IMG/VR virus record: IMGVR_UViG_3300028800_000080 | Source of the DNA: an uncultured virus (IMG/VR IMGVR_UViG_3300028800_000080) | Lineage: Duplodnaviria > Heunggongvirae > Uroviricota > Caudoviricetes | Reading direction: 5' to 3' (one strand) | Length of the DNA stretch: 20,000 nt | Shown: piece by piece, positions 873-18,032 of the stretch | Numbering within the stretch: position 1 is the first letter of the stretch | Layout: every line of letters starts with the position of its first letter | Notes under the pieces: generated by a model | Told to the model about the DNA's origin: nothing | The model's input: only the letters and a program-made list of their open reading frames with translations | The model's database searches: none | Translations under genes and position numbers: made by a program

Positions 873-3425
873 ATTTTTGCAGCCTGGCGAGTCGCAGTAG
901 TACTTTCAGCCCGTAACCTCACCGGGCCAGCATTCGGCGCTCTTGTCGCTGATGCAGGCAAGGCCGAGGCAGCTACTGCGCGTCTCAACTCGCTGATGCG
1001 CAGCCTAGGTGTAGGTGCGGCCATTGGCGCAATTGCGGTAGGCGCTGCGCTGGAATACGGTATCGGAAAGGGCATTCAGAAGGCGTCTGAGCTTCAGTCA
1101 GCGCTGAAGAGCCTCCAGGTCACCACGGGCGTTAGCAATCCTACGTTGGACCGCATTCACGACCTGGCGTTATCCGTAACGGGCGCTACGTCTCAGTCTA
1201 TCCAACAGATTCTGAGTGAGTTTCAATCCGGCGTCCGGGGAGGTTTAACTCCAGGGCAGCTGATGGGCAACAACGGTGCGTTGTTCCGTAAGATGGCTTA
1301 CTTCTCGGACGTGCTTTACCGCACACCAGGATTAGGTACGGACCCGAATGAGTCCATGTACGACATCGCCAAAATCTCGCATATGCTTGGCGCGTATTCG
1401 CCTAAAGCTATGGGCGATGTCACAGAAGACATCTACGCTGCGATGCGCACGGGACCGTTCGAGCTGGATAAGATGGTCACGCAGGGCAAGTACTTCATGT
1501 CCCTGTTCCACAATCTAGGCGCGTCCAACAAAGACATTATCGCAATGACGTCCTTCATGGGCCAGCTAGGCTACATGCAGGGTCGTGGCGGTACGGGTAT
1601 GCAGGCTATCGCGCTGGGCCTCATCAACGCAGCCCAGATGACGACCTCTCGCCAAGCCAAGCAGAAGAACGCTCTGAAGGACCTGGGCCTCATCGGTCCG
1701 AACGGACAGAGCCTCTACATGAGTCACGAGCGCCAGGCTGATGGTACGTATAAGAACCATTGGGACGTCATGGGCATGATGTCTCATCTTGTCTCGTTTG
1801 CCAAGTACCATCCGGCAGTAACCTTCGCAGGACTCATCAACAGCGCTCTGGGTCGTATCGCAGTCCCGTTAGTTTCGGCGGCGTCTATGGGACAGGCTTA
1901 CGAGCAGTTTCTAAAAATCTACGCCGAGCAGCAAAAGCTTAAGCGGGAGATGCCCATTGAGAAGGCGCAGCAGGAGCTGGTCTACGGCACTTTCAAGGGC
2001 GCATCAGGGCTGCTTAAGACGAACATTGAGAGCGCAATAGCTGAGATATTCCTGCCTCTCACTAACACGCTGATTCCGTATATCACTAAGCTAGCGAGCG
2101 TGTTCCTGCAAATAGCCATATTTGCTCGTCAACACCCTGCAGCGATGCTCACGGCTACTCTCACCGCAGCGGCTACGGGCCTTGTGCTGATAGTGGGCGG
2201 TGCGGCAGCACTAGCGCGTATGTCGTGGGTCGCTTATGCGGGCCTACGAGCACTTTCCCGGATGGAGGGCGAGCAAACAGTGGCCTCAGCCGCAGCAGGT
2301 GGCGGCGGCTTGTTGGGTAAATTGTTCGGGGGCCTAGCAATTGGCGGCTGGCTTAAGAATGCGTTTTCCGGCGTCGGCAAGTATTTGTTGGGTGAGGGTT
2401 TCGTAGCCAACGCAGGCTTTGGCGGCCACATGATCTACAAAGCAGGCGCGATTGCTGAGGGTCTGGGCGGCAATTTAGAGAGCAACATGGCTATTCGCGG
2501 CTTCATAATGCGGGTGCTGCCGCTAATTGGCGCAGCCTTCTCTCGGGTAGGGGCCTCGCTCATACCGCTTGTGGGCGAAGTGTTCATGTTCATTACCGCT
2601 ATCCAGTTGCTGAAGGGTCACGCTACGAACGTCGGCTGGGTACTGGGCACTATGGCTCGCTGGATTACGCACTCGTTCTGGCCGGGCGTTCTCTGGGCGT
2701 TCAGCGCAGGCTTTACCAACTCCAAGGGCAGCCTGTCTAAGATGTTTACAGGTAATGTGACCGATTGGTTCCGTGACGCGATAGACGCTTACGAGGCGGC
2801 GTTACATGGCGAGTCCTTGCACCATTACCGCTTAAAGAAGTACGGTCCCCAGGGACGTAAACCCGGCGCGGATGAGCTTACTTTGGCGATGGAGGGCAAA
2901 GGTCCTTGGGCGTTCGACAACCTGGTTCTAAAGCCTCTCGGTGTGAAGCTAGGTCAGTTCGGCAATTTCATGAAGCAGTGCTTCTACACGGCCACTAATT
3001 TCGTTGAGCAGCAACTCAGGCGATTTGACTCCTGGAATCGCAGCATCTGGCAGAGCATCATCAACACGATAACGCAGTCCATTTTGAAAATACCAGCGCT
3101 GTTCAGCGCTCTGAGTGCTAATATTGCGGCTAAGATTCACTCTATACCCTTCATCGGGGACAAACTGGTACCTAACGCTCCTAGTGGAGCAGCGCATCCA
3201 CACGCCACCGTGCGACGAGTAAGTGCGACGCATCCACACGCCCCCGTGCGCGTAGGCGATATCACTATCCACGTGAATGGCGCAGGGAACCCGAAGCAGG
3301 TGGCTGACGCGGTGATGAATCTGCTGGTGAAACACGGGGGCCTGCAGCAGCGAGCGCAAGGGGGCCAAGCGACCAGCCCGTTCAGCATTGAGTCGCAGCT
3401 GGGGCTAGTAGGAGTGCCGGGCTAA
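873..3425 (+). CDS. Tail tape measure protein (about 850 aa from proposed ATT start; 809 aa from ATG 996)
   Basis: Long Ala/Gly/Leu-rich helical protein with a TMP-like core (MGQLGYMQGRGGTGM...KNALKDLGL), central hydrophobic segments and a C-terminal ITIHVNGAGNPKQVADAV motif. The frame is open from 861. Confidence 0.9.
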   Translation: MFAAWRVAVVLSARNLTGPAFGALVADAGKAEAATARLNSLMRSLGVGAAIGAIAVGAALEYGIGKGIQKASELQSALKSLQVTTGVSNPTLDRIHDLALSVTGATSQSIQQILSEFQSGVRGGLTPGQLMGNNGALFRKMAYFSDVLYRTPGLGTDPNESMYDIAKISHMLGAYSPKAMGDVTEDIYAAMRTGPFELDKMVTQGKYFMSLFHNLGASNKDIIAMTSFMGQLGYMQGRGGTGMQAIALGLINAAQMTTSRQAKQKNALKDLGLIGPNGQSLYMSHERQADGTYKNHWDVMGMMSHLVSFAKYHPAVTFAGLINSALGRIAVPLVSAASMGQAYEQFLKIYAEQQKLKREMPIEKAQQELVYGTFKGASGLLKTNIESAIAEIFLPLTNTLIPYITKLASVFLQIAIFARQHPAAMLTATLTAAATGLVLIVGGAAALARMSWVAYAGLRALSRMEGEQTVASAAAGGGGLLGKLFGGLAIGGWLKNAFSGVGKYLLGEGFVANAGFGGHMIYKAGAIAEGLGGNLESNMAIRGFIMRVLPLIGAAFSRVGASLIPLVGEVFMFITAIQLLKGHATNVGWVLGTMARWITHSFWPGVLWAFSAGFTNSKGSLSKMFTGNVTDWFRDAIDAYEAALHGESLHHYRLKKYGPQGRKPGADELTLAMEGKGPWAFDNLVLKPLGVKLGQFGNFMKQCFYTATNFVEQQLRRFDSWNRSIWQSIINTITQSILKIPALFSALSANIAAKIHSIPFIGDKLVPNAPSGAAHPHATVRRVSATHPHAPVRVGDITIHVNGAGNPKQVADAVMNLLVKHGGLQQRAQGGQATSPFSIESQLGLVGVPG
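3193..3250 (+). repeat. 22-bp imperfect direct repeat (36-bp period) in TMP C-terminus
   Basis: cgcatccacacgccaccgtgcg (3193-3214) and cgcatccacacgcccccgtgcg (3229-3250) encode HPHATVR / HPHAPVR. Confidence 0.85.
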
Positions 3426-6484: not shown

Positions 6485-6901
6485 ATGCCTGATTTTGCGT
6501 TAGACTGGGGCGGCGACCTGGATTATAGCGATACGGGCGACTGGTTAACGGTTGACGGCGCAGCCCTGTTTGTCCAGCGCGCAGTGCGTCGGGCGCTCAC
6601 GAATAGCTACTCTCCGCCAGGCGTGGACGGCAACGGTGAGATTCCTTCAGATAACGTCTTCATTACGAATTACGGTGGCAACTTGCGAGCGGCAGTAGAT
6701 ACTAAGAACAGTAAGTTGAACTGGGACAGTATCAAGCAAACATTCATTCGACAGATTCAAGTCGAAGCGGAGGCAGAGCGGTTGCGTACCGTGACGGCGG
6801 ATATTTCAGTTACCGGGTCGGGCAGTTGCGCGACCATCGAAGGCACGATTTCCGTGGGCAAGAATCCTATTGTACCTATTCCTTTGATTGAGTTGACTTA
6901 G
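6485..6901 (+). CDS. Baseplate wedge gp25/gpW-like protein
   Basis: WGGDL..S.TGD...VDG....QR.VRR.LTN...NYGGNL is gp25/gp46-like. SD AAGGA upstream. Sits between the spike and baseplate J. Confidence 0.75.
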   Translation: MPDFALDWGGDLDYSDTGDWLTVDGAALFVQRAVRRALTNSYSPPGVDGNGEIPSDNVFITNYGGNLRAAVDTKNSKLNWDSIKQTFIRQIQVEAEAERLRTVTADISVTGSGSCATIEGTISVGKNPIVPIPLIELT

Positions 6902-8037
6902 TGGCTACTATAACGACCTACTCTTGGCAAGACTTTGTAGACGCAATGATTGCGACAGCGTCTACGGCGACCCCGAACCTGACGGATTTTACGCCAGGCT
7001 CTATTGCTTTGGCGATGTTCATGGCGGTAGCGGGCGTAGCTACCATGTTGCAGAGCATGATTCTAACCGTTCAGAACGGCATGCGGCTCCAGACGAGTCA
7101 AGGCTCGCAGGTAGACTCGTTCCTGGCTGACTGGGGTGCCTCTCGGCAAGACTCACGTGCCGCAACGGGCCAAGTCACGTTAGGTCGCATTCTTACGGCG
7201 GCAACAATCCACATCTCCCCCGGCGCGGTCATTCAGACCAGCGTTGACCGCATCAAGTTCAACATCGTAGCGGACCCTGGCAATATCACGGGCAATTGGG
7301 ATAGCGGTTCTAGTACGTACATCTTCCCCAGCGGTCAAAGCACGTTGAACGTGTTAGTGCAGGCGGTTGTCTCCGGTTCGGGGGGCAACATTATTGCGAA
7401 CACCCTGACCCAGATAGTCAGCGGGTTGGGCGGCGTGAACACCGTTTTTAATGCGCTACCGTTTACGACGGGTCTGGACACCGTTTCGGATGATTCGGCT
7501 AAGGCTGATTTCCAGCAGTCCTACATACCCGCACTCGGTACAGGTAACTACGCAGCCATTGCTCGCGCTGTGAAGGGCGTAGGCGGCAACCTCACGCACA
7601 ACGTCATCCCCCAGCAGCATCTCGACGGCTCAGCCTTCGTTTCAGGCTACACGGTAACCGTGGATGACGGCACGGGCGCTATTTCGGGCGCTACTTTGAC
7701 GGCGGTAGCTACTGCGCTGGACAGCGTTAGGGCGGCGGGCGATATTCCTGAGGTTCAAGCGCCTAACAATTTGCTTGTCAATGTGCAAATGCACATGCTT
7801 CCCAGCAGCACGTCTGTCGCGTCTGTCGTACAGGCGGCAGTACAGGCGTCTATCAGCGACTACATGAACAACCTCGGCGCAGGAGCGACGGTAGTAAGCT
7901 TTGCTGACGTGTTAGCGCTGGCTCAGAGCGTGCCAAGTGTGCTGTCCGTGACGGGCCTTCAACTCAACGGCACGGGCGCTGATGTGCCGGTGACGCCGGT
8001 TCAGTTGCCTCGGATAGGAACCGTCACCTTTGTATAG
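6901..8037 (+). CDS. Baseplate J-like protein
   Basis: DFTPGS, LQTSQGSQVD, AATGQVT, G..GN, V.N..PFT.G.D motifs are characteristic of Baseplate_J. Confidence 0.9.
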   Translation: MATITTYSWQDFVDAMIATASTATPNLTDFTPGSIALAMFMAVAGVATMLQSMILTVQNGMRLQTSQGSQVDSFLADWGASRQDSRAATGQVTLGRILTAATIHISPGAVIQTSVDRIKFNIVADPGNITGNWDSGSSTYIFPSGQSTLNVLVQAVVSGSGGNIIANTLTQIVSGLGGVNTVFNALPFTTGLDTVSDDSAKADFQQSYIPALGTGNYAAIARAVKGVGGNLTHNVIPQQHLDGSAFVSGYTVTVDDGTGAISGATLTAVATALDSVRAAGDIPEVQAPNNLLVNVQMHMLPSSTSVASVVQAAVQASISDYMNNLGAGATVVSFADVLALAQSVPSVLSVTGLQLNGTGADVPVTPVQLPRIGTVTFV

Positions 8038-8707
8038 CCTCGCAGATTTCACGGGGCGGCTGGTCACTCTGTGGACGTCAGTATGGTCAAGCAGTGATTC
8101 GGTCGTGAACGGTGGCGTCATAGGAGCGCTTACCGGCTACGCTACGGTGTTCCCCATGCTCAAGGGCACTCTGGATTCCCTGCAGACGCAGGGCCGTGTG
8201 ATCAGTTCAGTGGACAGCGCTCTTGAGGGCTGGTCTAATGACCTGTTCGGTGAGGGCGTGTTCCCCCGAGGCTTGAACTACGACGCTGTTCACAACGTCT
8301 GGGTCGCCATTGATGACCCGACCTATGCGACGCTCATTAAAAACAACCTCATTCTGCCTCAGAACACGGTTGGGGGCTTACAGGCTCGAATCACAAACTA
8401 CCTCACGTACTACTATCAGCAGGACCGCGACAGTATGTCCCTCGACACAGGTGGGGGCCTCGACACAGGTGGGGGCCTCGATGGCGGCGGCTACAGCGCC
8501 GTGCCGACTGTGGAAGTGTTCGACTTGCGAAGCGACCCCACTAAGGCTGCGACACTGGGTATTACCCAGGGGCAATTCTGTGTACTTTTCCGTTTCGGAG
8601 GCTCCACTTTAAGAGTGATTACTGGGTTGACTCCCGAACTAACAGATTTAGTAAATGGCTGGAAGGCACAAGGCAAGACAGTAGTTTACGCCGACGACCA
8701 AGGATAA
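8030..8707 (+). CDS. Baseplate wedge protein (P2 gpI / Mu gp48-like)
   Basis: Follows baseplate J and precedes the fibre. Contains LEGWSNDLFG...DDPTYATLIK...NT..G, and a C-terminal V..WKAQG..V pattern typical of gpI-like proteins. Confidence 0.65.
   Translation: MYSLADFTGRLVTLWTSVWSSSDSVVNGGVIGALTGYATVFPMLKGTLDSLQTQGRVISSVDSALEGWSNDLFGEGVFPRGLNYDAVHNVWVAIDDPTYATLIKNNLILPQNTVGGLQARITNYLTYYYQQDRDSMSLDTGGGLDTGGGLDGGGYSAVPTVEVFDLRSDPTKAATLGITQGQFCVLFRFGGSTLRVITGLTPELTDLVNGWKAQGKTVVYADDQG
8440..8481 (+). repeat. Perfect 18-bp tandem repeat (2.3 copies)
   Basis: cctcgacacaggtggggg x2 followed by cctcga, encoding LDTGGG-LDTGGG-LD. Confidence 0.95.
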
Positions 8708-8708
8708 A

Positions 8709-11462
8709 ATGCGAAACATATTCAAGACGCTGCTCCTCTCTTTAGCGCTTGTCACGATGGTGACGGGCGTTGACCGCGTACAGTATAAGACGGCACTACA
8801 GCTGCCCAGCAACTGGTTGAATACAGCTGAGGTCAACAAGACCGTCAACCTGGGACAGCTGGTTTGGGACGTAGTGGGGCGCGCCAACACCACAGGCTTC
8901 CTCTCTAACGTCGGCATCGTGCCTAACGGCTCCAACCTGAACATCAACGTCGGACCCGCAGTGACTAACAGCTATGGGAGCGTTTACCAGGTTGCTGCTA
9001 TTGACACGTCTGCCTTCGGTGACGGCTCGGGCCAGATTGCTGCGAACGCCAACCAAGTCTACCACCAGTACCTGATTAAGTCCACGCAAGTGCTTGGGCC
9101 CCTTACGGCTCCGTCCGGTGGCAACTCGGTCATCGACCTGGTTGAATGTCACGGCACTACGTCGGATACGACCAGCCAGAGCGTGTTCTTCAGTTCCACC
9201 AGCAACATTCGCACGAGCGGCACGGCCAATCGTGACCGAGTAGACGCGGGCAGCTGCCAAGTTAAGGCGGGCACGCCTGCCGGTAGCCCCACGGTCCCCT
9301 CTACGGACAGCGGCTGGTTAGCGGCGGGCATTGTAACGTTGCCTTCGGGCGTGACGTCTATTACGGGCGGCATGATTACCGTCTATGCGCAGGGTCTTAC
9401 GATTCCCGCAGGCGCGGCTAGCTCGCTCGCTCAGCCGGGCACGAACGTCACGGGCTGCTTTATTTGCTACGGCACGCTAGGCGTTGCCAGCACAGGCTTC
9501 ATTCGTATGGGCAACGCAGACACGACGGGCTATACGAGCCTCGCTACGGGTAATACCTCGACTATTGCGGGCGTCGTTGATAAGTTGCTGGGCATCGGTG
9601 ACACCGGTGTTGCAAAGGCGGGCCTCAATACTTCCGGTAGCTTAGGCTTGGCGGGCAGCCTCCAAGCGCTTGGCTCAGTTATCGCTGGACAAGCGACGGC
9701 AGCGACGGTCAGTTTTGGTGACCTCACAGCGTCCCGTTCATCGACCACCGGCGCTTTGGTGCTTGGTGGCTCCTCCTCTAACTGCGTATTCGACTATGGC
9801 GTAACGGCAAGCGGTGACCTCAGTTCCAACTGTTTGATTCAAGCTACTGGCGTCCAGCAAGTAGCTACCAACGTCACGGGCTGCTTCTTCTGCTACGGCA
9901 CGCTCGGTGCTACCTCAGCAGCGGTGCTACGTTTCGGCAATAACCTCACCGGCACGGCGTATACGTCCATCGGCGCTCCAAACAACGGTTCGGTCGCAGG
10001 CGTAACCTCCTCTCTCGTGTCCATAACGAATACGGGCACGAAAGTGGTCAACATTGATGGCACCGGCAACATCGGAACGGCTGGCGGTGTAACGGCTCTT
10101 GGCGCGATTGTGTCGGGTGGAACGGCGAACGCTCCTGCCTTCTCGTCAGGTGACGTGGTTGCTCTGCGCTCCACTACGACTGGCGCAATGTGGATTGGCG
10201 GCTCCTCGTCTAGCTGCCGCGTTGACTACCAGTTAACCGCAAGTGGCGCGATTGGGCTGAATTGCGGCTTGCAACTTAGCGGTAACGTCTATGCGGCGGG
10301 CGGCGGCGGCAACATCTTCTCGGACCAGACTATCGTAGCAGGCTTCTCCAATGGCAGCCCGCTAACTCTCGTGGGCGGCGACCTCGTGTCTACCCGTTCC
10401 TCCAGTACAGGTGAGTTGGTGCTGGGCGGCAGCGGTATCACCCACGGTAAAGGTACGCTTGACTACGGTATTCGCAGCGGTAGCGGCACGTTCACGTTCG
10501 CTGCAGGCACGGGCGTATACGCTCTGGGCCAGTTCTACCTCGCAACCAACACCGGCACAAACTACCCTACTCTCAACGCAGGTGACCTTGGAACGTCGGA
10601 AGGCGCGTCTAGCGGCCTGTTAGCGTTCGGCGGTTCTACTAACCAGTGTAATTTCGACTACGGCGTCACGACCTCGCAGGTGAGTACGCTCGGTTGTCCG
10701 TTCAATGCTTCCTCGTACGTGGTTGCTGGTTGGGCGACCGCAGCGACGGCGACGGCGGGCGACCTTGAAGCTTCCCGTGGCGTATCCTCAGGCGCTTTAG
10801 TACTGGGCGGCAGCACTAACTCTTGTCGCATCGACTACGGCGTCACTAATGGTGGCTTCCTTGGCGTACAGTCGGGCTGCAACTGGAAGATGGCGGGCAC
10901 TATCACCTCGGGTGGGCTCACGGACACGGCGCTGTCTTCAGCGACGGTCAGCATGCTCTGCGGAGCAAACGCTACGGCGGTGTCACAGTGTGCAAGCCAA
11001 TCGGTTCTCATGGCTTCGACGGGCGCGACGAACGCAGCAACCGGCACCTCAGCTAACACGTACGTCCAGTTAGGCGCTACGCAATCCGTTACCACCGGCA
11101 CTAGCCTCGGCACTAACGGTGAGTGGCTGATTACCGTCCATGAGTACGTGAGCGTAGCAACTTTGAGCGTAGGAGAAAGCGAGTACGGCTGCATACAGTC
11201 TAGCTCTACGATTGTGTCCACCCTCTACAATACTGTCGATGGCGCGACCGGCAACTGCCAGACGGCGCTCGCTAACTCCGTGGCAGGCGCTCCTGATATT
11301 GGTCGCAACACGAGTTCAGGCATAGGTAACCAGTCTAATATTGAAGTGGCTGTGCTGGTCGCCAACAGCACTACCTACTCAGCCAAGTGCTATGTTGCCG
11401 GCACCACGACCACGAGCATCACAATGTACGGTCATTGCACCATACGGGCAGAACCGTACTAA
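8709..11462 (+). CDS. Tail fibre / receptor-binding protein with predicted signal peptide and paired cysteines
   Basis: 917 aa, Gly/Ser/Thr/Ala-rich, last gene of the baseplate operon. Has a baseplate-attachment-type N-domain (VDRVQY...QVKAGTPAGSPTVPSTDSGW...VTSIT), internal repeats and 20 Cys. Residues 1-20 look like a Sec signal peptide. Confidence 0.85.
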   Translation: MRNIFKTLLLSLALVTMVTGVDRVQYKTALQLPSNWLNTAEVNKTVNLGQLVWDVVGRANTTGFLSNVGIVPNGSNLNINVGPAVTNSYGSVYQVAAIDTSAFGDGSGQIAANANQVYHQYLIKSTQVLGPLTAPSGGNSVIDLVECHGTTSDTTSQSVFFSSTSNIRTSGTANRDRVDAGSCQVKAGTPAGSPTVPSTDSGWLAAGIVTLPSGVTSITGGMITVYAQGLTIPAGAASSLAQPGTNVTGCFICYGTLGVASTGFIRMGNADTTGYTSLATGNTSTIAGVVDKLLGIGDTGVAKAGLNTSGSLGLAGSLQALGSVIAGQATAATVSFGDLTASRSSTTGALVLGGSSSNCVFDYGVTASGDLSSNCLIQATGVQQVATNVTGCFFCYGTLGATSAAVLRFGNNLTGTAYTSIGAPNNGSVAGVTSSLVSITNTGTKVVNIDGTGNIGTAGGVTALGAIVSGGTANAPAFSSGDVVALRSTTTGAMWIGGSSSSCRVDYQLTASGAIGLNCGLQLSGNVYAAGGGGNIFSDQTIVAGFSNGSPLTLVGGDLVSTRSSSTGELVLGGSGITHGKGTLDYGIRSGSGTFTFAAGTGVYALGQFYLATNTGTNYPTLNAGDLGTSEGASSGLLAFGGSTNQCNFDYGVTTSQVSTLGCPFNASSYVVAGWATAATATAGDLEASRGVSSGALVLGGSTNSCRIDYGVTNGGFLGVQSGCNWKMAGTITSGGLTDTALSSATVSMLCGANATAVSQCASQSVLMASTGATNAATGTSANTYVQLGATQSVTTGTSLGTNGEWLITVHEYVSVATLSVGESEYGCIQSSSTIVSTLYNTVDGATGNCQTALANSVAGAPDIGRNTSSGIGNQSNIEVAVLVANSTTYSAKCYVAGTTTTSITMYGHCTIRAEPY
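9444..10880 (+). repeat. Internal repeats of the tail fibre
   Basis: Two ~142-aa units start at TNVTGCFxCYGTLG (DNA similarity at 9444 and 9870). Five GD(L/V)x3(R/E)x4G..GGS...DY units start at 9717, 10149, 10377, 10581 and 10758. Confidence 0.85.
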
Positions 11463-11463
11463 C

Positions 11464-11937
11464 ATGTTCTTTCCGGGGGTAGACCCCTCCCATTTCGCTC
11501 CATTGTTCAATGGCCTCGGCATCTTATTTGCCGGCATGGCTGCGATTTGGACTACTGCGAGCGTGTTCCTCAACCGCCATCACATCTTCGACTATCTCAA
11601 GTCGAAGCGTGAGATGACTCGTGAGATTCAGCTATGGAAGTGGCGCTCCACGACGGCTACTGCCAGAGCGTTCGCAGCGGAGCAGCGAGCGGTTAACTGG
11701 GAGAGTGGGGCCGAAGGGGCGGCATTCAACCAGCGCGAAGTACTATCTCGACTGGAGGAGGTAGAGAAGCGTGCTAAACGGGCTGAGCAGATGATACCTC
11801 GTTTCGAGGCGTTGCTCAGGTTCACGAAGAAGCTCATCGAGCACACTAACTACCTTGAGCAGCAACTGACCAAGGCGGGCGTGCAGATTGAGAGCGTGAC
11901 TCCACCCATCCCCGATATTCTCAAAGGCGATTTCTAA
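11464..11937 (+). CDS. Lysis-cassette membrane protein (one TM + coiled coil; holin/antiholin/spanin-like)
   Basis: ATG 11464 is 1 nt after the fibre stop. Hydrophobic LGILFAGMAAIWTTASVFL is followed by a charged heptad region. Immediately precedes the endolysin. Confidence 0.5.
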   Translation: MFFPGVDPSHFAPLFNGLGILFAGMAAIWTTASVFLNRHHIFDYLKSKREMTREIQLWKWRSTTATARAFAAEQRAVNWESGAEGAAFNQREVLSRLEEVEKRAKRAEQMIPRFEALLRFTKKLIEHTNYLEQQLTKAGVQIESVTPPIPDILKGDF

Positions 11938-12371
11938 TGGCTACTTTAATGACGCGGCAGCAAGTCTGCGACTCCTTCGGTCTAATCAGTCCAAGCCAAC
12001 GCGCTGACCTGATGAATCCCAGCATTACGACGCTGGGGTTGATTGAGTTTCTCAGCGAGCTGTTCGAGCAGCGAGGCGGTATCTGGAGGGGTAAGCTCGT
12101 GTGCACGGCTGTGCACAGTGACCATCCGACCTACGATAGCGTCAACGGTCACAGCGGCGGCAACGCTATTGATATCTCCCAGATGTCCAGTCCCGACGAT
12201 GCGGTGGTGCACCTAGTGAAGGATATTCAAGCTTGTGAGATGGCTAAAGGTATTGGCCTTGGCGGCCCGTTCCAGGCGGCAGTTGCGACGTGCGGCCCGT
12301 ATGGCCCTGCAAGCAAACTGTTCGAAGACAACGGTACTGACCATATCCATATCCAAGTGGTTAGCTATTAG
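11937..12371 (+). CDS. Putative endolysin, M15/LAS-type zinc peptidase
   Basis: H-x6-D motif (HSGGNAID) plus C-terminal DHIHI (HxH). Flanked by membrane proteins. Confidence 0.7.
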   Translation: MATLMTRQQVCDSFGLISPSQRADLMNPSITTLGLIEFLSELFEQRGGIWRGKLVCTAVHSDHPTYDSVNGHSGGNAIDISQMSSPDDAVVHLVKDIQACEMAKGIGLGGPFQAAVATCGPYGPASKLFEDNGTDHIHIQVVSY

Positions 12372-12385
12372 GGTGCCGTTCAACA

Positions 12386-12589
12386 ATGCTTAATTGGCTA
12401 GTCTTGCTCAACACCTATATTCACGTCAAGGTGAAAGGCTCCATGGCAGGAGCTGCTGCAGGGCTCATAATTGCTTGGGTAGTGAGCATGCATTGGGTGC
12501 TCCCTTTCGCGGTCGCCTCAGCCATCATCTTATTATGCACCTTTCTCGGCGGCTATCTCCCCAGGAATCCCCCGGATAATCCCGAATAG
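12386..12589 (+). CDS. Holin (two TM helices)
   Basis: 67 aa: KVKGSMAGAAAGLIIAWVV...LPFAVASAIILLCTFLGGY with a short polar tail. Adjacent to the endolysin. Confidence 0.7.
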   Translation: MLNWLVLLNTYIHVKVKGSMAGAAAGLIIAWVVSMHWVLPFAVASAIILLCTFLGGYLPRNPPDNPE

Positions 12590-12596
12590 GGTCTAA

Positions 12597-13019
12597 GTGA
12601 CCCGTAAAGATTATCAGGCGTGGCAGGCGCAAATGGTGCGCAGCGCTGAGAAGATGAGTAACTGCTCACGTCGTCACGTAGCTTGCATCCTTTTCGCAGA
12701 CCGTAAAGACAGCCGTTACACCCTAGCTGTGAACGGTAGCATGATTCCCAAAGGCTGCGAACGTCCTACTGAGCAGGGTAACTGCGGATGTCTGCACGCT
12801 GAAATTCGGTCGGCTGTATTCTACTCGTGGAAGTATCCCGTGGTTGAAGCGTGGATAACGTGCGCCCCTTGCGCCCCTTGCGCTAAAGCGCTAGTGATGC
12901 TGCAGGACCATCGTCAGGCTATGACCGTCTACTACCTTGAAGATAGTCACCCTATGCTGGAAGGCTTCAAAGTGCTAGACGCTGCGGGCATAAAGCATGT
13001 GAAGTATGAGGGCACCTAG
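12597..13019 (+). CDS. dCMP deaminase family protein
   Basis: S.C.RRHVAC, NG, CLHAE and PCxxC zinc-deaminase motifs. Confidence 0.85.
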   Translation: MTRKDYQAWQAQMVRSAEKMSNCSRRHVACILFADRKDSRYTLAVNGSMIPKGCERPTEQGNCGCLHAEIRSAVFYSWKYPVVEAWITCAPCAPCAKALVMLQDHRQAMTVYYLEDSHPMLEGFKVLDAAGIKHVKYEGT

Positions 13020-13371
13020 CCCCCTTGAGCGAGCACTTAGGAACCGCATTGAGAAACGATGGAAGGACGCCGGTCTGTTCTACTGGTCTGTCAATGACGT
13101 TTTTGCCGCAGGGTTGCCTGATAGCCAGGGAATATTTCGAGGACGGACGTTCTATTGCGAGTTCAAAGGAGTTACTACCGTACTCGAACCTCACCAAGAT
13201 GCTTGGCTCAGGCAAATTGCCCTTCACGGAGGGGTTGCCCTCGTATGTCGAGCAGACCTTTCTTGCCCATCTCCATGGTATGCAAAGTACAGCGTACGAC
13301 GCCCTGATGGATGGGACCCTTGGATACCGATAACGGAGGATGTATGGTTACAACGCTTGCTGTGCTCATAG
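13006..13371 (+). CDS. VRR-NUC / PD-(D/E)XK nuclease
   Basis: GLPD...FYCEFKG...LEPHQ..W...I...GG pattern. Upstream of a SNF2 helicase, as is common in phages. Confidence 0.8.
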   Translation: MRAPSPLERALRNRIEKRWKDAGLFYWSVNDVFAAGLPDSQGIFRGRTFYCEFKGVTTVLEPHQDAWLRQIALHGGVALVCRADLSCPSPWYAKYSVRRPDGWDPWIPITEDVWLQRLLCS

Positions 13372-13586
13372 AGAACGTAAGAAGCGAAAAGACTGTCATC
13401 GATGACCTCGTAGAATATGTAGAATCGCTAATCGCCAATCAATCCATAGACGAACCTCTCGCATCAACTCTGCGACAATGTGCTTTGTATTACCGCAAAT
13501 CACGTGATATCTGGCGGAGGCCGATGCTCATCAAGAAACTGGAAGAATGGCAGCAAGCGGAGATAGACCAAAAGAGAAGCCTCTAG
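13344..13586 (+). CDS. Hypothetical protein (80 aa, helical)
   Basis: SD GGAGG precedes ATG 13344. Overlaps the nuclease stop. Confidence 0.55.
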   Translation: MVTTLAVLIENVRSEKTVIDDLVEYVESLIANQSIDEPLASTLRQCALYYRKSRDIWRRPMLIKKLEEWQQAEIDQKRSL

Positions 13587-13705
13587 GCCCTTGCCAGGAG
13601 TCACTGAAGCGGTACCTGGAGAGCAAGGACCTGGATGAAATCATCCACCGGCTGTTTAGACAGCAGCGACGATTGAAGCCTAGTGACGTTCACAAAGACT
13701 CCTAA
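13547..13705 (+). CDS. Small hypothetical protein (52 aa), not in ORF track
   Basis: MAASGDRPKEKPLGPCQESLKRYLESKDLDEIIHRLFRQQRRLKPSDVHKDS fills the gap between neighbours and overlaps both. Confidence 0.4.
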   Translation: MAASGDRPKEKPLGPCQESLKRYLESKDLDEIIHRLFRQQRRLKPSDVHKDS

Positions 13706-15215
13706 ACAGGAGCAGGCTATCATTTGGGCAAGCGAGCGCGACTATGCGCCGCTGTTCATGGAGACAGGCACCGGCAAGACCTGGGTGGCGCTTGAGCTAT
13801 TCCAGCAATGGATTGTGACTCGTGACGCCCGCATTGTCGTTGTGTGCATGAACACGCTTACCGAGAACTGGGTATTGGAGGCTGTGAAATTCGGCTACCA
13901 ATTTAAGATAGCTCGCTGCTTCGGCACTAAAGTGAACCGCCTTAAAACTATAATGGGGGCGTGGGACGTTATAGTTATCAACTACGAAAGTTTAAGGAAC
14001 CCCGAGATACTCGCAGCGCTGAAGGAGGCGCGACCACTTGGACTGTGCTTCGATGAAATCCAACGTCTTAAAGATAGACGAGCCAAGCAGACGAAGGCGG
14101 CTCGTGAGTTGGCAGAGGGAGTGGCGGCTCGTGGCGGGACGATTCTGGGTCTTACGGGTACGCCTGTCGTTCATTCGCCCCCGGACCTTTGGTCTGAGTT
14201 TGATGTGCTCTCCCCCGGAGAGAACCCGAAAACGCATCCATTGGGGTACGGAAATTTTTACGCTTTCGAGCAAGGAGTGGCTAACATCAAGCCGCATCCC
14301 CGGCTCGGCTACCGAGTTAAAATCTACGAGTACCCCGACGACAAGCTAGCTGAGCTCAAGCGGAGAGTAGCTCCGCTTGCTTTCGAGGCAAGCAAGGATG
14401 AGCTAGGCCTGCCGCCGCGCAACTTTCTGCCGCCGACCGATATCACGATGGGCGATGAGCAGGCGAAGGTCTACAAATCGCTACGTGACGACTACATCGC
14501 CTTCCTTACTGAGGCTCCCACACCGACCGGCGCCATAGCGCGGTTGAAAGAATGTGGTGTTTCCCCACTGGCAGGAAACGTAGCCGCCATGGACGCATTC
14601 CACTCCATCCCTGCGCTCCTGGGTGAAGGGTTGGACCGGCAGGTTTCAACTACCTTTCAGCAGGTCCTGCAGACCCGTTTGCAGCAGGTTGCAGCCGGGC
14701 ACATCCGAACGGATGACGGGCAGATACGCGAGTTGCCCAACGCCAAGATTGACTGGTTAGAGGACATGCTGCCTAGCTTGACCGCAGAGGGCTGGGACAA
14801 CAAAGTCGTCATCTTCTGTCGCTTCAAGTACGACGTTGCTAGGTTGAGTGTTCTCTGCGAAAAGTTGAGGTTAGGCTATGTTTCACTCTCGGGAGCAAAC
14901 AGCACCGATGCCAGCTCTATGGTCCACCGTTTCCAAACAGAGAAGCGTGTGCGTGTCTTCATCGGGAACGTCGCCATTGCCAGCGTAGGCATCACCCTCA
15001 CAGCCGCAAATAGCTGTGTATTTTACACCAACTCATTCAACGGCGAGCATCGACTCCAGGCCATTGATAGGGTGTATCGAATCGGCCAGAAGCGTGTAGT
15101 GACCTATTACGACCTGTGCGCAGCGGCTGTGGACCGAAGGATTTTGGCGAACCTTCACGAAAAGGATAATTTGGCCACGAAAACCGTGCGCAATCTATTG
15201 GAGATTATCGAATGA
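13683..15215 (+). CDS. SNF2-family helicase/ATPase
   Basis: Walker A METGTGKT, INYESL, Walker B FDEIQ, LTGTP, KVVIFC, GITLTAA, QAIDRVYRIGQ. Confidence 0.92.
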   Translation: MTFTKTPKQEQAIIWASERDYAPLFMETGTGKTWVALELFQQWIVTRDARIVVVCMNTLTENWVLEAVKFGYQFKIARCFGTKVNRLKTIMGAWDVIVINYESLRNPEILAALKEARPLGLCFDEIQRLKDRRAKQTKAARELAEGVAARGGTILGLTGTPVVHSPPDLWSEFDVLSPGENPKTHPLGYGNFYAFEQGVANIKPHPRLGYRVKIYEYPDDKLAELKRRVAPLAFEASKDELGLPPRNFLPPTDITMGDEQAKVYKSLRDDYIAFLTEAPTPTGAIARLKECGVSPLAGNVAAMDAFHSIPALLGEGLDRQVSTTFQQVLQTRLQQVAAGHIRTDDGQIRELPNAKIDWLEDMLPSLTAEGWDNKVVIFCRFKYDVARLSVLCEKLRLGYVSLSGANSTDASSMVHRFQTEKRVRVFIGNVAIASVGITLTAANSCVFYTNSFNGEHRLQAIDRVYRIGQKRVVTYYDLCAAAVDRRILANLHEKDNLATKTVRNLLEIIE

Positions 15216-15484
15216 GAAATAAATTGATGTTGGCGCTCGCGCTGACTCTTGCAGGGTGCGACCCTTACGCAAAGCATGACGCGCAGATTCAAGCTCAGTA
15301 TCAGACGGTGTTGAACCAGGTTCTCGTGAACACGTTCGGTGTCGTCTGCCCGGGTAAGCGCCTCCGTCAAAACGGGCTAGTGTTCCCGGATGCGAGCGCG
15401 AAAAAGGCCCCCAGCGTATACCCCGTCATCGTCATCTGCGCCAACGGAAAGACGTACAACGTTACAGGGTTGAAGACCAAGTAA
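15212..15484 (+). CDS. Predicted lipoprotein (90 aa)
   Basis: MRNKLMLALALTLAG-C has a basic n-region, an h-region and lipobox LAGC. Two further Cys in the mature part. ATGA overlap with the helicase. Confidence 0.75.
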   Translation: MRNKLMLALALTLAGCDPYAKHDAQIQAQYQTVLNQVLVNTFGVVCPGKRLRQNGLVFPDASAKKAPSVYPVIVICANGKTYNVTGLKTK

Positions 15485-17611: not shown

Positions 17612-18032
17612 ACGGCCTAACGTCCGTGCGCTTATCGCGCTAACCGAGACAAACAGCTGGGCGAAGGACGTGCTGCGCTTCCAGAAGGAGCGTATGCTCA
17701 AGGAAATTCCAAAAGGCCCCTATGTACCAGATGCCGCCGAGAGAGGCGACATGATTGGGCGGCTACATGAAGAGGCTCGTGAGGCGCAGAAAGCGCTCGT
17801 CAACGGGCATCTAGCGCCAACGTTAGATGCGTTAGGCGACCTCATCTACACAGCAATTGGTATCGCATGGCTCCACGGCGTGGACATCTCCCCCTTCATG
17901 GAGGAAATACACATGGCGAACATGGAGAAGGCGCCAGCAGACGGCAAAGGCTTTGGCCGGATGACTGCAGACGGCAAATCGACAAAAGCTAACTGGGAAC
18001 CACCACGCATAGAGGAGTTACTACGTGCGTAA
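17580..18032 (+). CDS. MazG-like / PRA-PH all-alpha NTP pyrophosphohydrolase (dUTPase-like)
   Basis: LHEEAREA...LDALGDLIY...EIHMANMEK...GK..K.NW.PP motifs. SD GGAGG before the GTG. Confidence 0.8.
   Translation: MDVRPLDNPSRRPNVRALIALTETNSWAKDVLRFQKERMLKEIPKGPYVPDAAERGDMIGRLHEEAREAQKALVNGHLAPTLDALGDLIYTAIGIAWLHGVDISPFMEEIHMANMEKAPADGKGFGRMTADGKSTKANWEPPRIEELLRA

What the first reader, a model, noticed from the sequence alone, without database searches (positions are those of the whole stretch)
8709..11462. Tail fibre with a Sec-type signal peptide: a possible exported, post-lysis-assembled receptor-binding protein
Seen: residues 1-20 (8709-8768), MRNIFKTLLLSLALVTMVTG, have a basic n-region, a Leu-rich h-region and a V-x-G (-3/-1) signal peptidase I-type site. 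This ATG has an SD (AAGGA) and abuts the upstream stop, whereas the internal ATG at 8757 has no SD. Predicted cleavage leaves VDRVQY..., matching the MDR-type N-terminus I recall for baseplate-attached fibres in this module type. No fibre-assembly chaperone gene follows. Established: tailed phages normally assemble all structural proteins in the cytoplasm. Inference: this fibre is exported, folds in the periplasm or envelope, and docks onto baseplates only at or after lysis. It might also block receptors on the infected cell. This would be an unusual split-compartment virion assembly pathway.
Basis: partly seen in the sequence, partly recalled or inferred. Interest (0 to 1): 0.92.

Follow-up and report, generated by a model that had tools for sequence, protein, structure and literature searches.

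The report
Phage tail fibre carrying secretion signal
The only tail-fibre gene of this uncultured contractile-tailed phage starts with an ordinary bacterial export signal, as do about a hundred related fibres, so the fibre probably folds outside the cytoplasm and joins the virus particle only when the cell is breached.

Summary
ORF 8709-11462 (917 aa) sits in the tail-fibre slot of a myovirus-type phage contig, after the baseplate J and gpI-like genes. Residues 1-20 look like a Sec signal peptide.

I examined 149 HMMER relatives of the N-domain. Of these, 97 carry a 15-41-aa signal-like leader that ends exactly where the conserved domain begins. Position -1 is Ala, Gly or Ser in 88 of the 97. 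Thirty-nine relatives start directly at M-D-R, including fibres of cultured Ralstonia phages. On a tree, the leader marks one clade (97 of 101 classifiable rows). At least two of the four exceptions are miscalled starts.

Mature leader-bearing fibres have an even number of cysteines in 86 of 97 cases, against 20 of 39 leaderless ones. This is the usual sign of disulfide bonding outside the cytoplasm.

The mature N-domain folds confidently into a receptor-binding-protein "shoulder". As a trimer it is predicted to grip a triple-repeat loop of the leaderless gpI-like protein (score 0.67; best control 0.01).

Export is well supported. Docking onto particles at or after membrane breach is inferred, not shown. 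I found no paper describing this. This scan has noted similar leaders on fibres of other phages.

The parts
8700..8704 (+). Shine-Dalgarno-like AAGGA, 4 nt before the ATG at 8709
   Evidence: Read directly. The upstream ORF stops at 8705-8707.
8709..8768 (+). Signal-peptide coding region, residues 1-20. The n-region has R2 and K6. The h-region is about 12 residues (T7/L8-V18). The c-region is V-T-G.
   Evidence: In 97 of 149 relatives an analogous leader ends at the same alignment position.
8769..9404 (+). Mature N-terminal 'shoulder' domain, residues 21-232. It holds the conserved pair C147/C183.
   Evidence: HMMER found 262 relatives. The AF2 model has pLDDT 95.3 and pTM 0.88. The fold matches are RBP shoulders, tail fibres and TssK. 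Residues 26-37, 108 and 160-166 form the predicted docking interface.
9405..10571 (+). Gly/Ser/Thr-rich central shaft, residues 233-621. It has repeated GDL..SR...G.LVLGG...C..DYGV......C units and two CxxC motifs (residues 250-253 and 392-395).
   Evidence: The repeat units lie at 9717-9797, about 10149-10265 (found by eye) and 10377-10466. The unit at 10377-10466 lacks both cysteines.
10572..11462 (+). Conserved C-terminal region, residues 622-917, plus the stop codon. It is the presumed receptor-binding end and holds 10 Cys in 5 apparent pairs.
   Evidence: 46% identity to P0003 over residues 622-917. There are no Pfam or PHROG hits. Atlas neighbours are viral hypothetical proteins, scores 0.88-0.89 over the four rows shown, which are leads only.
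8030..8707 (+). gpI-like baseplate adaptor, 225 aa, with no signal peptide
   Evidence: It is homologous to the gene that lies upstream of the fibre gene(s) in L013, L018, L020, L032, L037 and L049 (directly before the leader-bearing fibre except in L020 and L032, where a leaderless fibre paralogue lies between), and to Ralstonia phage Raharianne gp47. The L018 and L020 orthologues hit phrog_26379.
8429..8488 (+). Triple repeat (LDTGGG-like, three times), residues 134-153 of the gpI-like protein. It is predicted to be gripped by the three fibre N-termini.
   Evidence: Interface. The repeat is conserved in the alignments.
6901..8037 (+). Baseplate J-like wedge protein
   Evidence: PF04865, E 1.5e-19. 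phrog_6, E 1.8e-38.
996..3425 (+). Tape measure protein, which opens the tail/baseplate module
   Evidence: phrog_28, E 4.6e-21.
11464..11937 (+). 157-aa protein with one membrane helix and a coiled coil, directly after the fibre gene. Its role is unknown.
   Evidence: Sequence. No family hit.
11937..12371 (+). Possible LAS-type peptidase (endolysin candidate). This rests on a motif seen by eye only.
   Evidence: An H..D...HxH-like pattern is shared with L018 11103-11885. There is no Pfam, PHROG or PDB sequence hit.
12386..12589 (+). Small membrane protein, a weak holin candidate
   Evidence: phrog_9284 holin, E 0.0042.

Best explanation
ORF 8709-11462 is the receptor-binding tail fibre of a contractile-tailed phage. 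It is made as a precursor with a cleavable Sec signal peptide.

Proposed course of events:
1. The precursor is translocated across the host's cytoplasmic membrane.
2. Signal peptidase I cuts after Gly20. This recreates the VDR... N-terminus that leaderless relatives have from the start.
3. The fibre trimerises and its 10 cysteine pairs are oxidised outside the reducing cytoplasm.
4. Fibreless particles are built in the cytoplasm.
5. When the membrane barrier is breached (holin lesions or lysis), the mature trimer's N-terminal shoulder domain clamps onto the triple-repeat loop of the gpI-like baseplate protein, and the particle becomes infectious.

Shown by computation: the leader and its clade-wide conservation, the cleavage-site position, the cysteine signature, the fibre-slot context, the fold, and a predicted docking interface.

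Inferred: actual export, cleavage, disulfide formation, and the time and place of docking.
For: 1. Gene and leader.

2. Family conservation. Residues 1-232 were searched by HMMER against 1.84 billion representatives. This gave 262 hits at E <= 1e-3, of which the best 150 were listed. I classified 149 rows: the query plus the listed rows, without its own duplicate P0002 and without P0134, which did not fit the domain model.
- 97 rows have a leader of at least 15 aa that ends at model position 1.
- Position -1 is Ala in 79, Gly in 5 and Ser in 4.
- Position -3 is Ala in 61, Thr in 12, Val in 10 and Ser in 5.
- K or R lies in the first 8 residues in 95 of 97.
- 39 rows start at the domain with no leader, and 13 were unclassifiable.

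3. Tree. A FastTree tree of the domain splits at SH-like support 98 into two clades. One has 41 rows with 0 leaders. The other has 108 rows with 97 leaders, 4 leaderless and 7 unclassifiable. This needs 5 changes, against a mean of 34 in shuffles; 0 of 500 shuffles were as low. Two of the 4 exceptions are miscalled starts: P0021 has the leader upstream in L013, and P0117 has it upstream in L054.

4. Cysteines. The mature Cys count is even in 86 of 97 leader-bearing rows and in 20 of 39 leaderless rows (binomial p 1.4e-15; Fisher p 6.5e-6). Median density is 1.63 against 0.83 Cys per 100 aa (Mann-Whitney p 6.4e-9). The count is even in all 10 full-length leader-bearing members for which I hold DNA. 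Even-number bias is an accepted sign of disulfide formation in exported proteins (PMC2823432, passages read).

5. No internal start in most members. The codon at +1 is ATG, GTG or TTG in only 2 of 9 loci.

6. Context. The fibre gene follows a gpI-like gene in a TMP-baseplate J module in 7 of 7 loci long enough to judge: the window, L013, L018, L020, L032, L037 and L049. The rest of the contig has terminase, portal, protease, capsid and sheath genes and no other fibre family member.

7. Cultured relatives. Ralstonia phage Raharianne gp49 is leaderless and sits in the same slot.

8. Fold. The AF2 model has pLDDT 95.3. All top 10 chains by VIA-align are phage RBP, tail-fibre or TssK chains, with Z 5.1-7.3.

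9. Docking. For three copies of residues 21-232 with the gpI-like protein, the ipSAE scores were 0.63, 0.67 and 0.67, against 0.01 for the best of 3 controls. The mark was reached by 116 of 157 solved complexes and 2 of 215 mismatched pairs. The runs agree in at least 80% of contacts, and the partner's pLDDT is at least 69.
Against: - Nothing here is experimental, and no trained signal-peptide predictor was available.
- This member's c-region is short, lacks the usual proline, and has Gly at -1, which occurs in only 5 of 97 relatives.
- An in-frame ATG (8757) and GTG (8760) lie just before the domain. A leaderless isoform of this particular protein cannot be excluded.
- The docking partner has no leader, so docking must wait for the compartments to mix. 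Dilution at lysis would work against this. No tailed phage is known to assemble this way.
- The host is unknown.
- Family or structure-sequence searches did not confirm the presumed lysis genes.
- The complex prediction used my own alignments and a 3+1 layout unlike the tool's calibration. It may also echo solved TssK-TssG or RBP-baseplate complexes. It says nothing about timing.
- Even cysteine numbers could also come from oxidation after release. The two CxxC motifs could bind metal.
- Counts are over 50%-identity cluster representatives that are related to one another. Only the best 150 of 262 hits were seen. The tree is FastTree only.
Confidence: 0.52

Rival explanations
1. The protein is exported as above but is not a virion part. 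It would be a soluble or envelope-bound fibre-like protein that acts on the infected cell or its surroundings. It might mask or remove receptors, exclude superinfecting phages, keep progeny off debris, or cut surface polymers. The particle would recognise hosts through other baseplate proteins.
For: - The leader and cysteine signature show export, not incorporation.
- Some relatives encode a leaderless fibre paralogue right next to the leader-bearing one: L020 and L055 (weaker matches to the domain model) and, by N-terminal likeness to the L020 paralogue only, L032 (it did not match the domain model). That paralogue could be the real virion fibre there.
- Sec-exported, disulfide-bearing, phage-fibre-like trimers with a cellular role exist in Bdellovibrio (PMC10769870, passages read).
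Against: - In the window, L013, L018 and L037 no second fibre family member lies in the stretch I hold.
- The baseplate-docking shoulder domain is the best conserved part of the protein across the leader-bearing clade.
- It is predicted to bind the gpI-like protein. A protein that never meets a baseplate would have little reason to keep this.
Confidence: 0.2
2. The leader is a membrane-targeting or membrane-anchoring element that is not used for full export during infection. The fibre (or the baseplate through it) would be held at the cytoplasmic face of the membrane, or stay uncleaved, and assembly would be cytoplasmic as in textbook phages.
For: - All other virion genes lack leaders.
- Cytoplasmic assembly needs no new mechanism.
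- This member's cleavage motif is weaker than the family norm.
Against: - A structural helix or anchor would not need Ala-x-Ala placed exactly at the domain boundary in 79 of 97 relatives, nor leaders of only 20-27 aa with h-regions too short for stable anchors.
- It would not explain the even-cysteine bias that is tied to the leader.
- The predicted docking interface starts 6 residues after the cleavage site. Leaderless relatives tolerate 0-1 extra residue there in 32 of 39 cases.
Confidence: 0.1
3. Translation starts, wholly or partly, at the internal ATG 8757 or GTG 8760. The virion fibre would then be leaderless, and the long form would be a minor or separate exported isoform.
For: - An in-frame ATG and GTG lie 4 and 3 codons before the domain.
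- P0003 has Met two residues before the domain.
- 9 of 97 relatives keep Met at +1.
- Gene callers did call two relatives from such internal starts.
Against: - There is no Shine-Dalgarno-like run before 8757, while 8709 has one and abuts the upstream stop.
- +1 is a start codon (ATG or TTG) in only 2 of 9 loci with DNA, and none of the nine has a purine-rich run upstream of it.
- +1 is Leu, Ala, Thr, Asp and others in 88 of 97 relatives. A leaderless isoform therefore cannot be the general product.
Confidence: 0.07
4. The signal-like N-terminus is chance or an annotation artefact with no function.
For: 1.85% of internal 40-aa windows of the window's proteins pass my simple rule.
Against: The leader is retained in 97 of 101 classifiable members of a clade that has diverged to about 30% identity. 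The leader sequences are unrelated but their properties are conserved.
Confidence: 0.02

Closest known systems
Leaderless 'MDR-type' tail fibres of cultured phages: Ralstonia phages Raharianne, Hyacinthe and Albius (gp49 in Raharianne), and Komagataeibacter phages phiKX1 and phiKX2
   Same: The N-terminal domain is homologous. Raharianne gp49 matches the domain model at E 1.5e-46 from its residue 3, and tblastn gives 30-49% identity. In Raharianne the slot is the same: after baseplate V, W, J-like and gpI-like genes. Its gp47 is a gpI-like homologue (E 8e-15) with its own triple repeat.
   Different: They start directly at M-D-R with no leader. They belong to the leaderless clade, where cysteines are half as dense and show no even-number bias. 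No leader-bearing member was found among 50,697 phage records.
P2/Mu-type baseplate-fibre module (gpV-gpW-gpJ-gpI-gpH). The gene names are recalled.
   Same: The gene order and the Baseplate_J hit are the same. The fibre follows the gpI-like gene.
   Different: There is no Pfam or PHROG match to any tail-fibre family for this fibre. No recognisable gpG-type chaperone follows. P2 gpH has no signal peptide (recalled, not tested here).
RBP 'shoulder' domains and T6SS TssK: lactococcal phage 1358 RBP (4l92), phage p2 RBP (2wzp), Mtd (1yu0), TssK (5y0e, 6n38)
   Same: The fold of the mature N-domain is similar: Z 7.3, 6.3, 7.0 and 6.5, rmsd 2.7-5.9 A, 100-148 residues aligned. A trimer is predicted to grip a loop of a gp7/gpI-class adaptor. 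From memory, this is how TssK trimers hold TssG loops.
   Different: The Z values are middling, so this is a resemblance of fold, not proven kinship. None of those proteins is made with a Sec leader, to my knowledge (recalled).
Bdellovibrio bacteriovorus MAT (mosaic adhesive trimer) fibres (PMC10769870)
   Same: They are Sec-leader-bearing trimeric fibres with phage-fibre-like shafts. They have a conserved beta-rich domain right after the signal peptide and disulfides in their tip domains (passages read). This shows that such fibres can fold after export.
   Different: They are cellular proteins of a predator, not encoded in a phage tail module. Sequence kinship was not tested here.
Exported phage proteins that are not virion parts (signal-peptide endolysins such as fOg44 Lys44), and filamentous-phage coat proteins
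   Same: They are phage proteins that use the host Sec pathway (PMC8878798, passages on leader-bearing endolysins). That inovirus pIII and pVIII carry leaders is recalled.
   Different: The endolysins are not structural. Inoviruses assemble at the membrane by extrusion. Here a cytoplasm-built contractile-tailed particle would receive an exported part.

Membership tests
Sec-type (signal peptidase I) signal peptide | Basic n-region, hydrophobic h-region of about 7-15 residues, c-region with small residues at -1 and -3 | tested here: met
   R2 and K6 form the n-region. The h-region is about 12 uncharged hydrophobic residues. Val is at -3 and Gly at -1. This was tested with my own simple rule, not with a trained predictor.
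Sec-type (signal peptidase I) signal peptide | Properties are conserved among homologues while the sequence is not, and the cleavage site sits at the start of the conserved mature domain | tested here: met
   97 of 149 relatives meet this. Position -1 is Ala, Gly or Ser in 88 of 97. The leader of P0003 shares 5 of its 19 positions with this one, against 57% identity after it.
Sec-type (signal peptidase I) signal peptide | Actual translocation and cleavage | not testable with these tools
   This needs PhoA/BlaM fusions, fractionation or N-terminal MS.
Lipoprotein (signal peptidase II) signal | Lipobox with Cys at +1 | tested here: not met
   There is no Cys in residues 1-146.
Tat signal | Twin-arginine motif in the n-region | tested here: not met
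   The n-region is MRNIFK, with a single Arg.
Phage tail fibre / receptor-binding protein of a P2/Mu-type baseplate | Gene in the fibre slot after the baseplate J and gpI-like genes of a phage structural module | tested here: met
   for the window and its contig. The order is the same in 6 further loci and in cultured phage Raharianne.
Phage tail fibre / receptor-binding protein of a P2/Mu-type baseplate | N-terminal domain that docks on the baseplate | tested here: inconclusive
   The fold resembles RBP shoulders at Z 5.1-7.3. The complex model scored 0.67 against 0.01 for the best control; 116 of 157 solved complexes and 2 of 215 mismatched pairs reached the mark. A prediction supports binding but does not show it.
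Phage tail fibre / receptor-binding protein of a P2/Mu-type baseplate | Presence in the virion and a role in adsorption | not testable with these tools
   No cultured member of the leader-bearing clade was found.
Curated tail-fibre families (Pfam, PHROGs) | Match to a family profile | tested here: not met
   0 families for the whole protein at E <= 0.01, and 0 for residues 621-917 at E <= 1.
Disulfide-bonded exported proteins | Even number of cysteines, conserved in pairs | tested here: met
   The protein has 20 Cys in 10 neighbouring pairs, and 13 are invariant against P0003. One repeat copy lacks both cysteines of its pair. 86 of 97 leader-bearing relatives have an even count. C147 and C183 lie in register on the two strands of a hairpin of the model. 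This is inferred from strand limits; no coordinates were available.

The most novel reading that the evidence does not exclude
A whole clade of contractile-tailed phages builds its virions in two compartments. Heads, tails and baseplates are made in the cytoplasm. The receptor-binding fibre is sent through Sec, trimmed by the host's signal peptidase to the exact ancestral N-terminus, and cross-linked by the host's disulfide machinery. It is then snapped onto a triple-repeat loop of the gpI-like adaptor only once holin lesions or lysis join the compartments. Particles would therefore become infectious only at the moment of release. This would be an assembly route not described for any tailed phage. 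It would make host Sec, signal peptidase and Dsb functions into host factors for virion maturation.
Probability: 0.45. Interest if true: 0.9.

Novelty: new variant of a known kind. Interest (0 to 1): 0.8.

Why it matters
Textbooks state that tailed phages assemble all virion parts in the cytoplasm. A large, stably maintained clade of tail fibres has Sec leaders, a cleavage site that recreates the ancestral N-terminus, and the cysteine signature of oxidative folding. This suggests that some phages mature their host-recognition gear outside the cytoplasm and finish the particle at lysis.

If true, several things follow:
- It adds a new step to virion morphogenesis.
- It adds new host dependencies (Sec, signal peptidase I, Dsb).
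- It gives a reason why such fibres may fail when expressed in the cytoplasm for structural or engineering work.
- It warns against using 'has a signal peptide' as evidence that a protein is not of phage origin. One paper reasons that way (PMC6199706, passage read).
- It exposes a gene-calling pitfall. At least two database entries of this family were called from an internal Met, which hid the leader.

Tried and rejected
- Word-indexed protein searches found only the protein's own cluster and one relative. The exhaustive HMMER search was needed.
- The search for related loci found nothing new with the whole protein or the two-sequence alignment. I then used a degenerate DNA pattern for the motif NRDRxDxxxCQxK. 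That pattern gave 1 true locus of 16 stretches in genome contigs. In viral contigs it gave 3 of 3, one being the window's own contig. In metagenome contigs 6 of the 27 loci hold family members, on 5 contigs. All were checked with the domain HMM. The rest were chance matches.
- No whole genome is held for the window. The 'nearest record' G001 is the same 35,079-base contig at 100% identity, so no close variant was available for a synonymous/non-synonymous test of the leader codons.
- The Pfam sheath family PF04984 found nothing in the contig. PHROG phrog_23 did find a sheath.
- Foldseek against the PDB gave no match at E <= 0.001. VIA-align wide and BFVD gave the RBP-shoulder matches.
- Glycosylation idea: 15 N-x-S/T sequons against 13.7 expected, so no enrichment. 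I dropped it.
- The lysis cassette (11937-12371 and neighbours) got no Pfam hit and no PDB sequence hit. Only the small protein at 12386-12589 has a weak PHROG holin hit. I do not rely on it to infer a Gram-negative host.
- Atlas search of the C-terminal region gave only weak leads to viral hypothetical proteins.
- Five literature searches found no paper describing a Sec-exported tail fibre of a tailed phage. Of the papers opened, PMC12210884 uses 'signal peptide' for eCIS cargo loading, and PMC8878798 concerns a leader-bearing endolysin.
- I tried to check a lead from earlier notes: leader-bearing, MS-detected virion proteins of Cellulophaga phage phi18:3. An accession guessed from memory turned out to be Cellulophaga phage phi3:1. 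The phi18:3 claim stays unchecked.
- Model coordinates are not provided, so Cys-Cys distances could not be measured.


Full report
WHAT IS THERE.

The window is part of a 35,079-base uncultured viral contig. No whole genome is held for it. ORF 8709-11462 encodes 917 residues. Its ATG is preceded by AAGGA at 8700-8704 and abuts the stop of the upstream ORF at 8705-8707.

The first 20 residues are MRNIFKTLLLSLALVTMVTG. They have two basic residues, then about 12 uncharged hydrophobic residues, then V-T-G. The most hydrophobic 11-residue window of the whole protein is residues 8-18. The in-frame ATG at 8757 has no Shine-Dalgarno-like run, whereas most genes of the window do.

My simple signal-peptide rule places the first allowed cleavage site after residue 20. 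It passes 4 of 25 window proteins and 1.85% of internal windows. A single case could therefore be chance. The family evidence below is what decides.

THE SETTING.

Upstream lie a tape measure gene (phrog_28), a phrog_21362 gene and three unassigned baseplate-region genes. Next come a Baseplate_J gene (PF04865, E 1.5e-19) and a 225-aa gene that I call gpI-like from its position and its homologues.

The rest of the contig encodes small and large terminase, portal, scaffold, protease, major head protein and a tail sheath (phrog_23, E 3.1e-14). The Pfam sheath model found nothing. This is therefore a contractile-tailed phage, and the ORF sits where such phages encode their fibre. My domain-model scans of the contig stretches that hold the fibre (L001, L019) found no second copy of this fibre family. 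The head-to-sheath stretch (L023) was not scanned with the model, and its ORFs of 100 aa or more gave no fibre-family hit in PHROGs.

Downstream lie a 157-aa protein with a membrane helix and a coiled coil, a possible LAS-type peptidase (motif seen by eye only) and a weak holin candidate (phrog_9284, E 0.0042). None of the three matched a Pfam family or a solved structure by sequence. I do not use them to infer the host's envelope type.

THE FAMILY.

Word-indexed searches found one relative, P0003. It is 57% identical over residues 3-228 and 46% over residues 622-917. Its leader, MKFLKVALFAAVLALSTMG, is of the same kind but shares only 5 of its 19 positions with this one.

An exhaustive HMMER search with residues 1-232 found 262 proteins at E <= 1e-3. 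The best 150 were listed. I modelled the domain from residue 21 onward and classified 149 rows. P0002 was dropped as the window's own cluster. P0134 was dropped because it did not fit the model.

- 97 rows have a leader of at least 15 residues with a hydrophobic core that ends exactly at model position 1.
- 39 rows start at the domain, mostly as M-D-R.
- 13 rows were truncated or odd and were left unclassified.

The boundary was defined by the domain model, not by any signal-peptide rule. Even so, position -1 is Ala in 79, Gly in 5 and Ser in 4 of the 97. Position -3 is Ala in 61, Thr in 12, Val in 10 and Ser in 5. In 95 of 97, a Lys or Arg lies in the first eight residues. Signal peptidase I would therefore recreate the N-terminus that leaderless relatives have from their start codon. 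Those relatives carry 0 or 1 extra residue there in 32 of 39 cases.

ONE ORIGIN, STABLY KEPT.

A FastTree tree of the domain splits, at SH-like support 98, into two clades. The first has 41 rows: 35 leaderless, 6 unclassified and no leader. The second has 108 rows: 97 with a leader, 4 leaderless and 7 unclassified. The label needs 5 changes, against a mean of 34 in shuffles; 0 of 500 shuffles were as low.

Of the four exceptions:
- P0021 is the L013 protein called from its internal Met. The leader lies upstream in the DNA.
- P0117 is the G206 protein called from a Met inside its leader.
- P0042 begins with what looks like the tail of a leader.
- P0032 may be truly leaderless.

This is FastTree only, on 50%-identity representatives that share ancestry. 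The counts describe a clade, not independent events.

CYSTEINES.

The protein has 20 cysteines, and neighbouring ones form 10 apparent pairs. The other structural proteins of the window have 0-2. Thirteen of the 20 are invariant against P0003. Four of five internal repeat units carry a C-x15-17-C pair, and the fifth lacks both cysteines.

Across the family, mature proteins have an even cysteine count in 86 of 97 leader-bearing rows and in 20 of 39 leaderless rows (binomial p 1.4e-15 and 1.0; Fisher p 6.5e-6). Median density is 1.63 against 0.83 per 100 residues (Mann-Whitney p 6.4e-9). All 10 full-length leader-bearing members for which I hold DNA have even counts.

An even-number bias is an accepted sign of disulfide formation in exported proteins (PMC2823432, passages read).

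The conserved pair C147/C183 is present in 51 of 97 leader-bearing rows and in 2 of 39 leaderless rows. In the model, these two residues lie in register on the two strands of a long hairpin.

NOT AN INTERNAL START.

In nine loci with DNA, the codon at +1 is GTT, ATG, CTC, ACG, CTA, CTC, CTA, TTG and CTC. None has a purine-rich run upstream. Among the 97, +1 is Met in only 9. A leaderless isoform cannot be the general product. For this window, ATG 8757 and GTG 8760 leave it formally open.

CONTEXT ELSEWHERE.

A degenerate pattern for a conserved motif, checked with the domain model, gave further members:
- L013, a contig of a Vulcanimicrobiota MAG.
- L018 and L020, viral contigs.
- L026, L032, L037, L041 and L049, metagenome contigs.
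- L054 and L055, found by a search of 301 genomes of L013's phylum, in which 3 genomes had the family.

Every member with an intact 5' end has a leader. L041 is cut by its contig end.

In all seven loci long enough to judge, a gpI-like gene lies just upstream of the fibre gene or genes, in a tape-measure to baseplate J module. L020, L032 and L055 have a leaderless fibre-like gene between the two (the L032 one judged only by its N-terminal likeness to the L020 one). L049 has two leader-bearing fibres in tandem.

CULTURED RELATIVES.

Only leaderless members occur among 50,697 phage records. They are in Ralstonia phages Raharianne, Hyacinthe and Albius and in Komagataeibacter phages phiKX1 and phiKX2. 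In Raharianne, gp49 matches the domain model from its residue 3 (E 1.5e-46). It sits after baseplate V, W, J-like and gpI-like genes. This ties the domain to real tail modules. It also shows that the leader-bearing clade is known only from uncultured sequence.

FOLD AND DOCKING.

The mature N-domain, modelled with 111 aligned sequences, gives pLDDT 95.3 and pTM 0.88. Foldseek against the PDB found nothing at E <= 0.001. Against predicted viral structures it found 23 matches at that level, several of them named receptor-binding protein.

VIA-align against 48,161 chains gave a top ten made up only of phage RBP, tail-fibre and TssK chains:
- 4l92: Z 7.3, rmsd 4.6 A, 138 residues aligned.
- 1yu0: Z 7.0.
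- 8kec: Z 7.0.
- 2xc8: Z 6.8.
- 5y0e: Z 6.5.
- 2wzp: Z 6.3.

These Z values are middling. The consistency of the list is what carries weight.

A complex of three copies of residues 21-232 with the gpI-like protein scored ipSAE 0.63, 0.67 and 0.67, against 0.01 for the best of three controls. The mark was reached by 116 of 157 solved complexes and 2 of 215 mismatched pairs. The runs agree in at least 80% of contacts, and the partner's pLDDT is at least 69. My own alignments and the 3+1 layout differ from the tool's calibration.

The interface is fibre residues 26-37, 108 and 160-166 from all three copies, against residues 134-153 of the adaptor. That stretch of the adaptor is a threefold LDTGGG-like repeat, conserved in the other loci. 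In Raharianne gp47 it is replaced by a GAYG-like triple repeat. The pass may partly reflect likeness to solved TssK-TssG or RBP-baseplate complexes. It supports the claim that the mature N-terminus is a docking surface. It says nothing about when docking happens.

HOW IT MOST LIKELY WORKS.

1. The leader sends the fibre through Sec.
2. Signal peptidase I removes the leader at the domain boundary.
3. The fibre trimerises and forms disulfides outside the cytoplasm.
4. Its shoulder domain docks on the adaptor loop of cytoplasm-built particles once the membrane barrier is breached.

Steps 1-3 are well supported but not shown. Step 4 is inference. It rests on three things: the fibre is the only family member seen in this phage, its docking domain is conserved, and docking is predicted.

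From memory, fibreless particles of Mu and T4 can be completed in vitro, and canonical holins open very large membrane lesions before the envelope bursts. That would give a confined mixing chamber. I did not check these two points here.

Access to disulfide formation is the most obvious benefit of export. The leaderless clade lacks the cysteine signature.

RIVALS.

- The exported protein may not join the particle at all. It could mask receptors or serve in exclusion.
- The leader may only tether the fibre at the membrane.
- An internal start may give a leaderless virion form.

Evidence for and against each is given in the Rival explanations section.

WHAT IS KNOWN.

Five full-text searches found no paper describing a Sec-exported tail fibre of a tailed phage.

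The nearest published analogues that I read in passages are:
- The leader-bearing, disulfide-containing, phage-fibre-like MAT trimers of Bdellovibrio (PMC10769870).
- Leader-bearing endolysins (PMC8878798).

One paper treats the absence of signal peptides as support for the phage origin of fibre-like proteins (PMC6199706).

This scan's own notes hold at least 106 earlier findings of signal peptides on tail-fibre-type proteins in other phages. These include phages of Bacteroidota and soil phages with paired cysteines. The phenomenon has therefore been seen before in this scan on other DNA. Those are unchecked AI notes, and I did not count them as evidence.

Their lead to MS-detected, leader-bearing virion proteins of Cellulophaga phage phi18:3 remains unchecked. 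While looking for it I saw that cultured Cellulophaga phage phi3:1 gp8 is annotated 'structural protein' by similarity to phiSM gp8 and has a signal-like N-terminus.

VERDICT.

The export reading is strongly supported. The late-docking reading is plausible and testable but unproven.

Noticed in passing
window 8429-8488 (gpI-like residues 134-153): A threefold LDTGGG-like repeat in the single-copy adaptor protein. It is conserved as a triple repeat in L013, L018, L020, L032, L037 and L049. In Ralstonia phage Raharianne gp47 it is replaced by a GAYG-like triple repeat. It is predicted to be gripped by the three N-termini of the fibre trimer, which would be a 3:1 symmetry adaptor.
   Followed up: partly
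window 9717-9797, about 10149-10265, 10377-10466, 10581-10661, 10758-10838: Five copies of a roughly 40-aa unit (GDL..SR...G.LVLGG...C..DYGV......C) in the fibre shaft. Four carry a C-x15-17-C pair. The copy at 10377-10466 lacks both cysteines.
   Followed up: partly
window 9456-9467 and 9882-9893: Two CxxC motifs lie inside a duplicated TNVTGCF(I/F)CYGTLG segment. In a trimer they could bind metal on the axis rather than form disulfides.
   Followed up: no
window 11464-11937: A 157-aa protein directly after the fibre gene. It has one membrane helix followed by a basic stretch and a long coiled coil. By the positive-inside rule, the coiled coil would face the cytoplasm. It has no family hit. 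It could be a lysis or assembly factor.
   Followed up: partly
window 15212-15484 and 18025-18480: Two small ORFs with lipoprotein-like leaders (…LTLAGC… and …LLCAC…) lie among the replication-region genes. They have no family hits.
   Followed up: no
L020 6801-8234; L032 6844-8289; L055 2-1429; L049 9413-10621 and 10618-13299: Some relatives encode a leaderless fibre-like gene between the gpI-like gene and the leader-bearing fibre (the L020 and L055 ones are weaker matches to the domain model; the L032 one is judged only by its N-terminal likeness to the L020 one). One relative encodes two leader-bearing fibres in tandem.
   Followed up: partly
P0021 versus L013 1339-2763; P0117 versus L054: Two database proteins of this family were called from an internal Met, which hid the signal peptide that the DNA encodes upstream. 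P0042 looks like a third case.
   Followed up: yes
L018 10546-11403: The gene after the leader-bearing fibre in this viral contig encodes a lipoprotein-leader protein with a weak glycosyl-hydrolase catalytic-core match (PF11790, E 1.4e-4).
   Followed up: no
L056 5907-7130 and 7154-10438 (Cellulophaga phage phi3:1 gp8, gp9): In this cultured myovirus, gp8 is annotated 'structural protein' by similarity to phiSM gp8, and gp9 is a 1094-aa pectate lyase. Both begin with signal-peptide-like N-termini (MKNYLSILFLLSSFLVLSQ…, MMKTILLLAFSLCSFFAVAQ…).
   Followed up: partly
window 12597-15215: Ordinary phage replication and nucleotide genes: a dCMP-deaminase-like gene (PF00383, E 1.8e-6), a weak VRR-NUC match and an SNF2-type helicase (PF00176, PF00271).
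   Followed up: no
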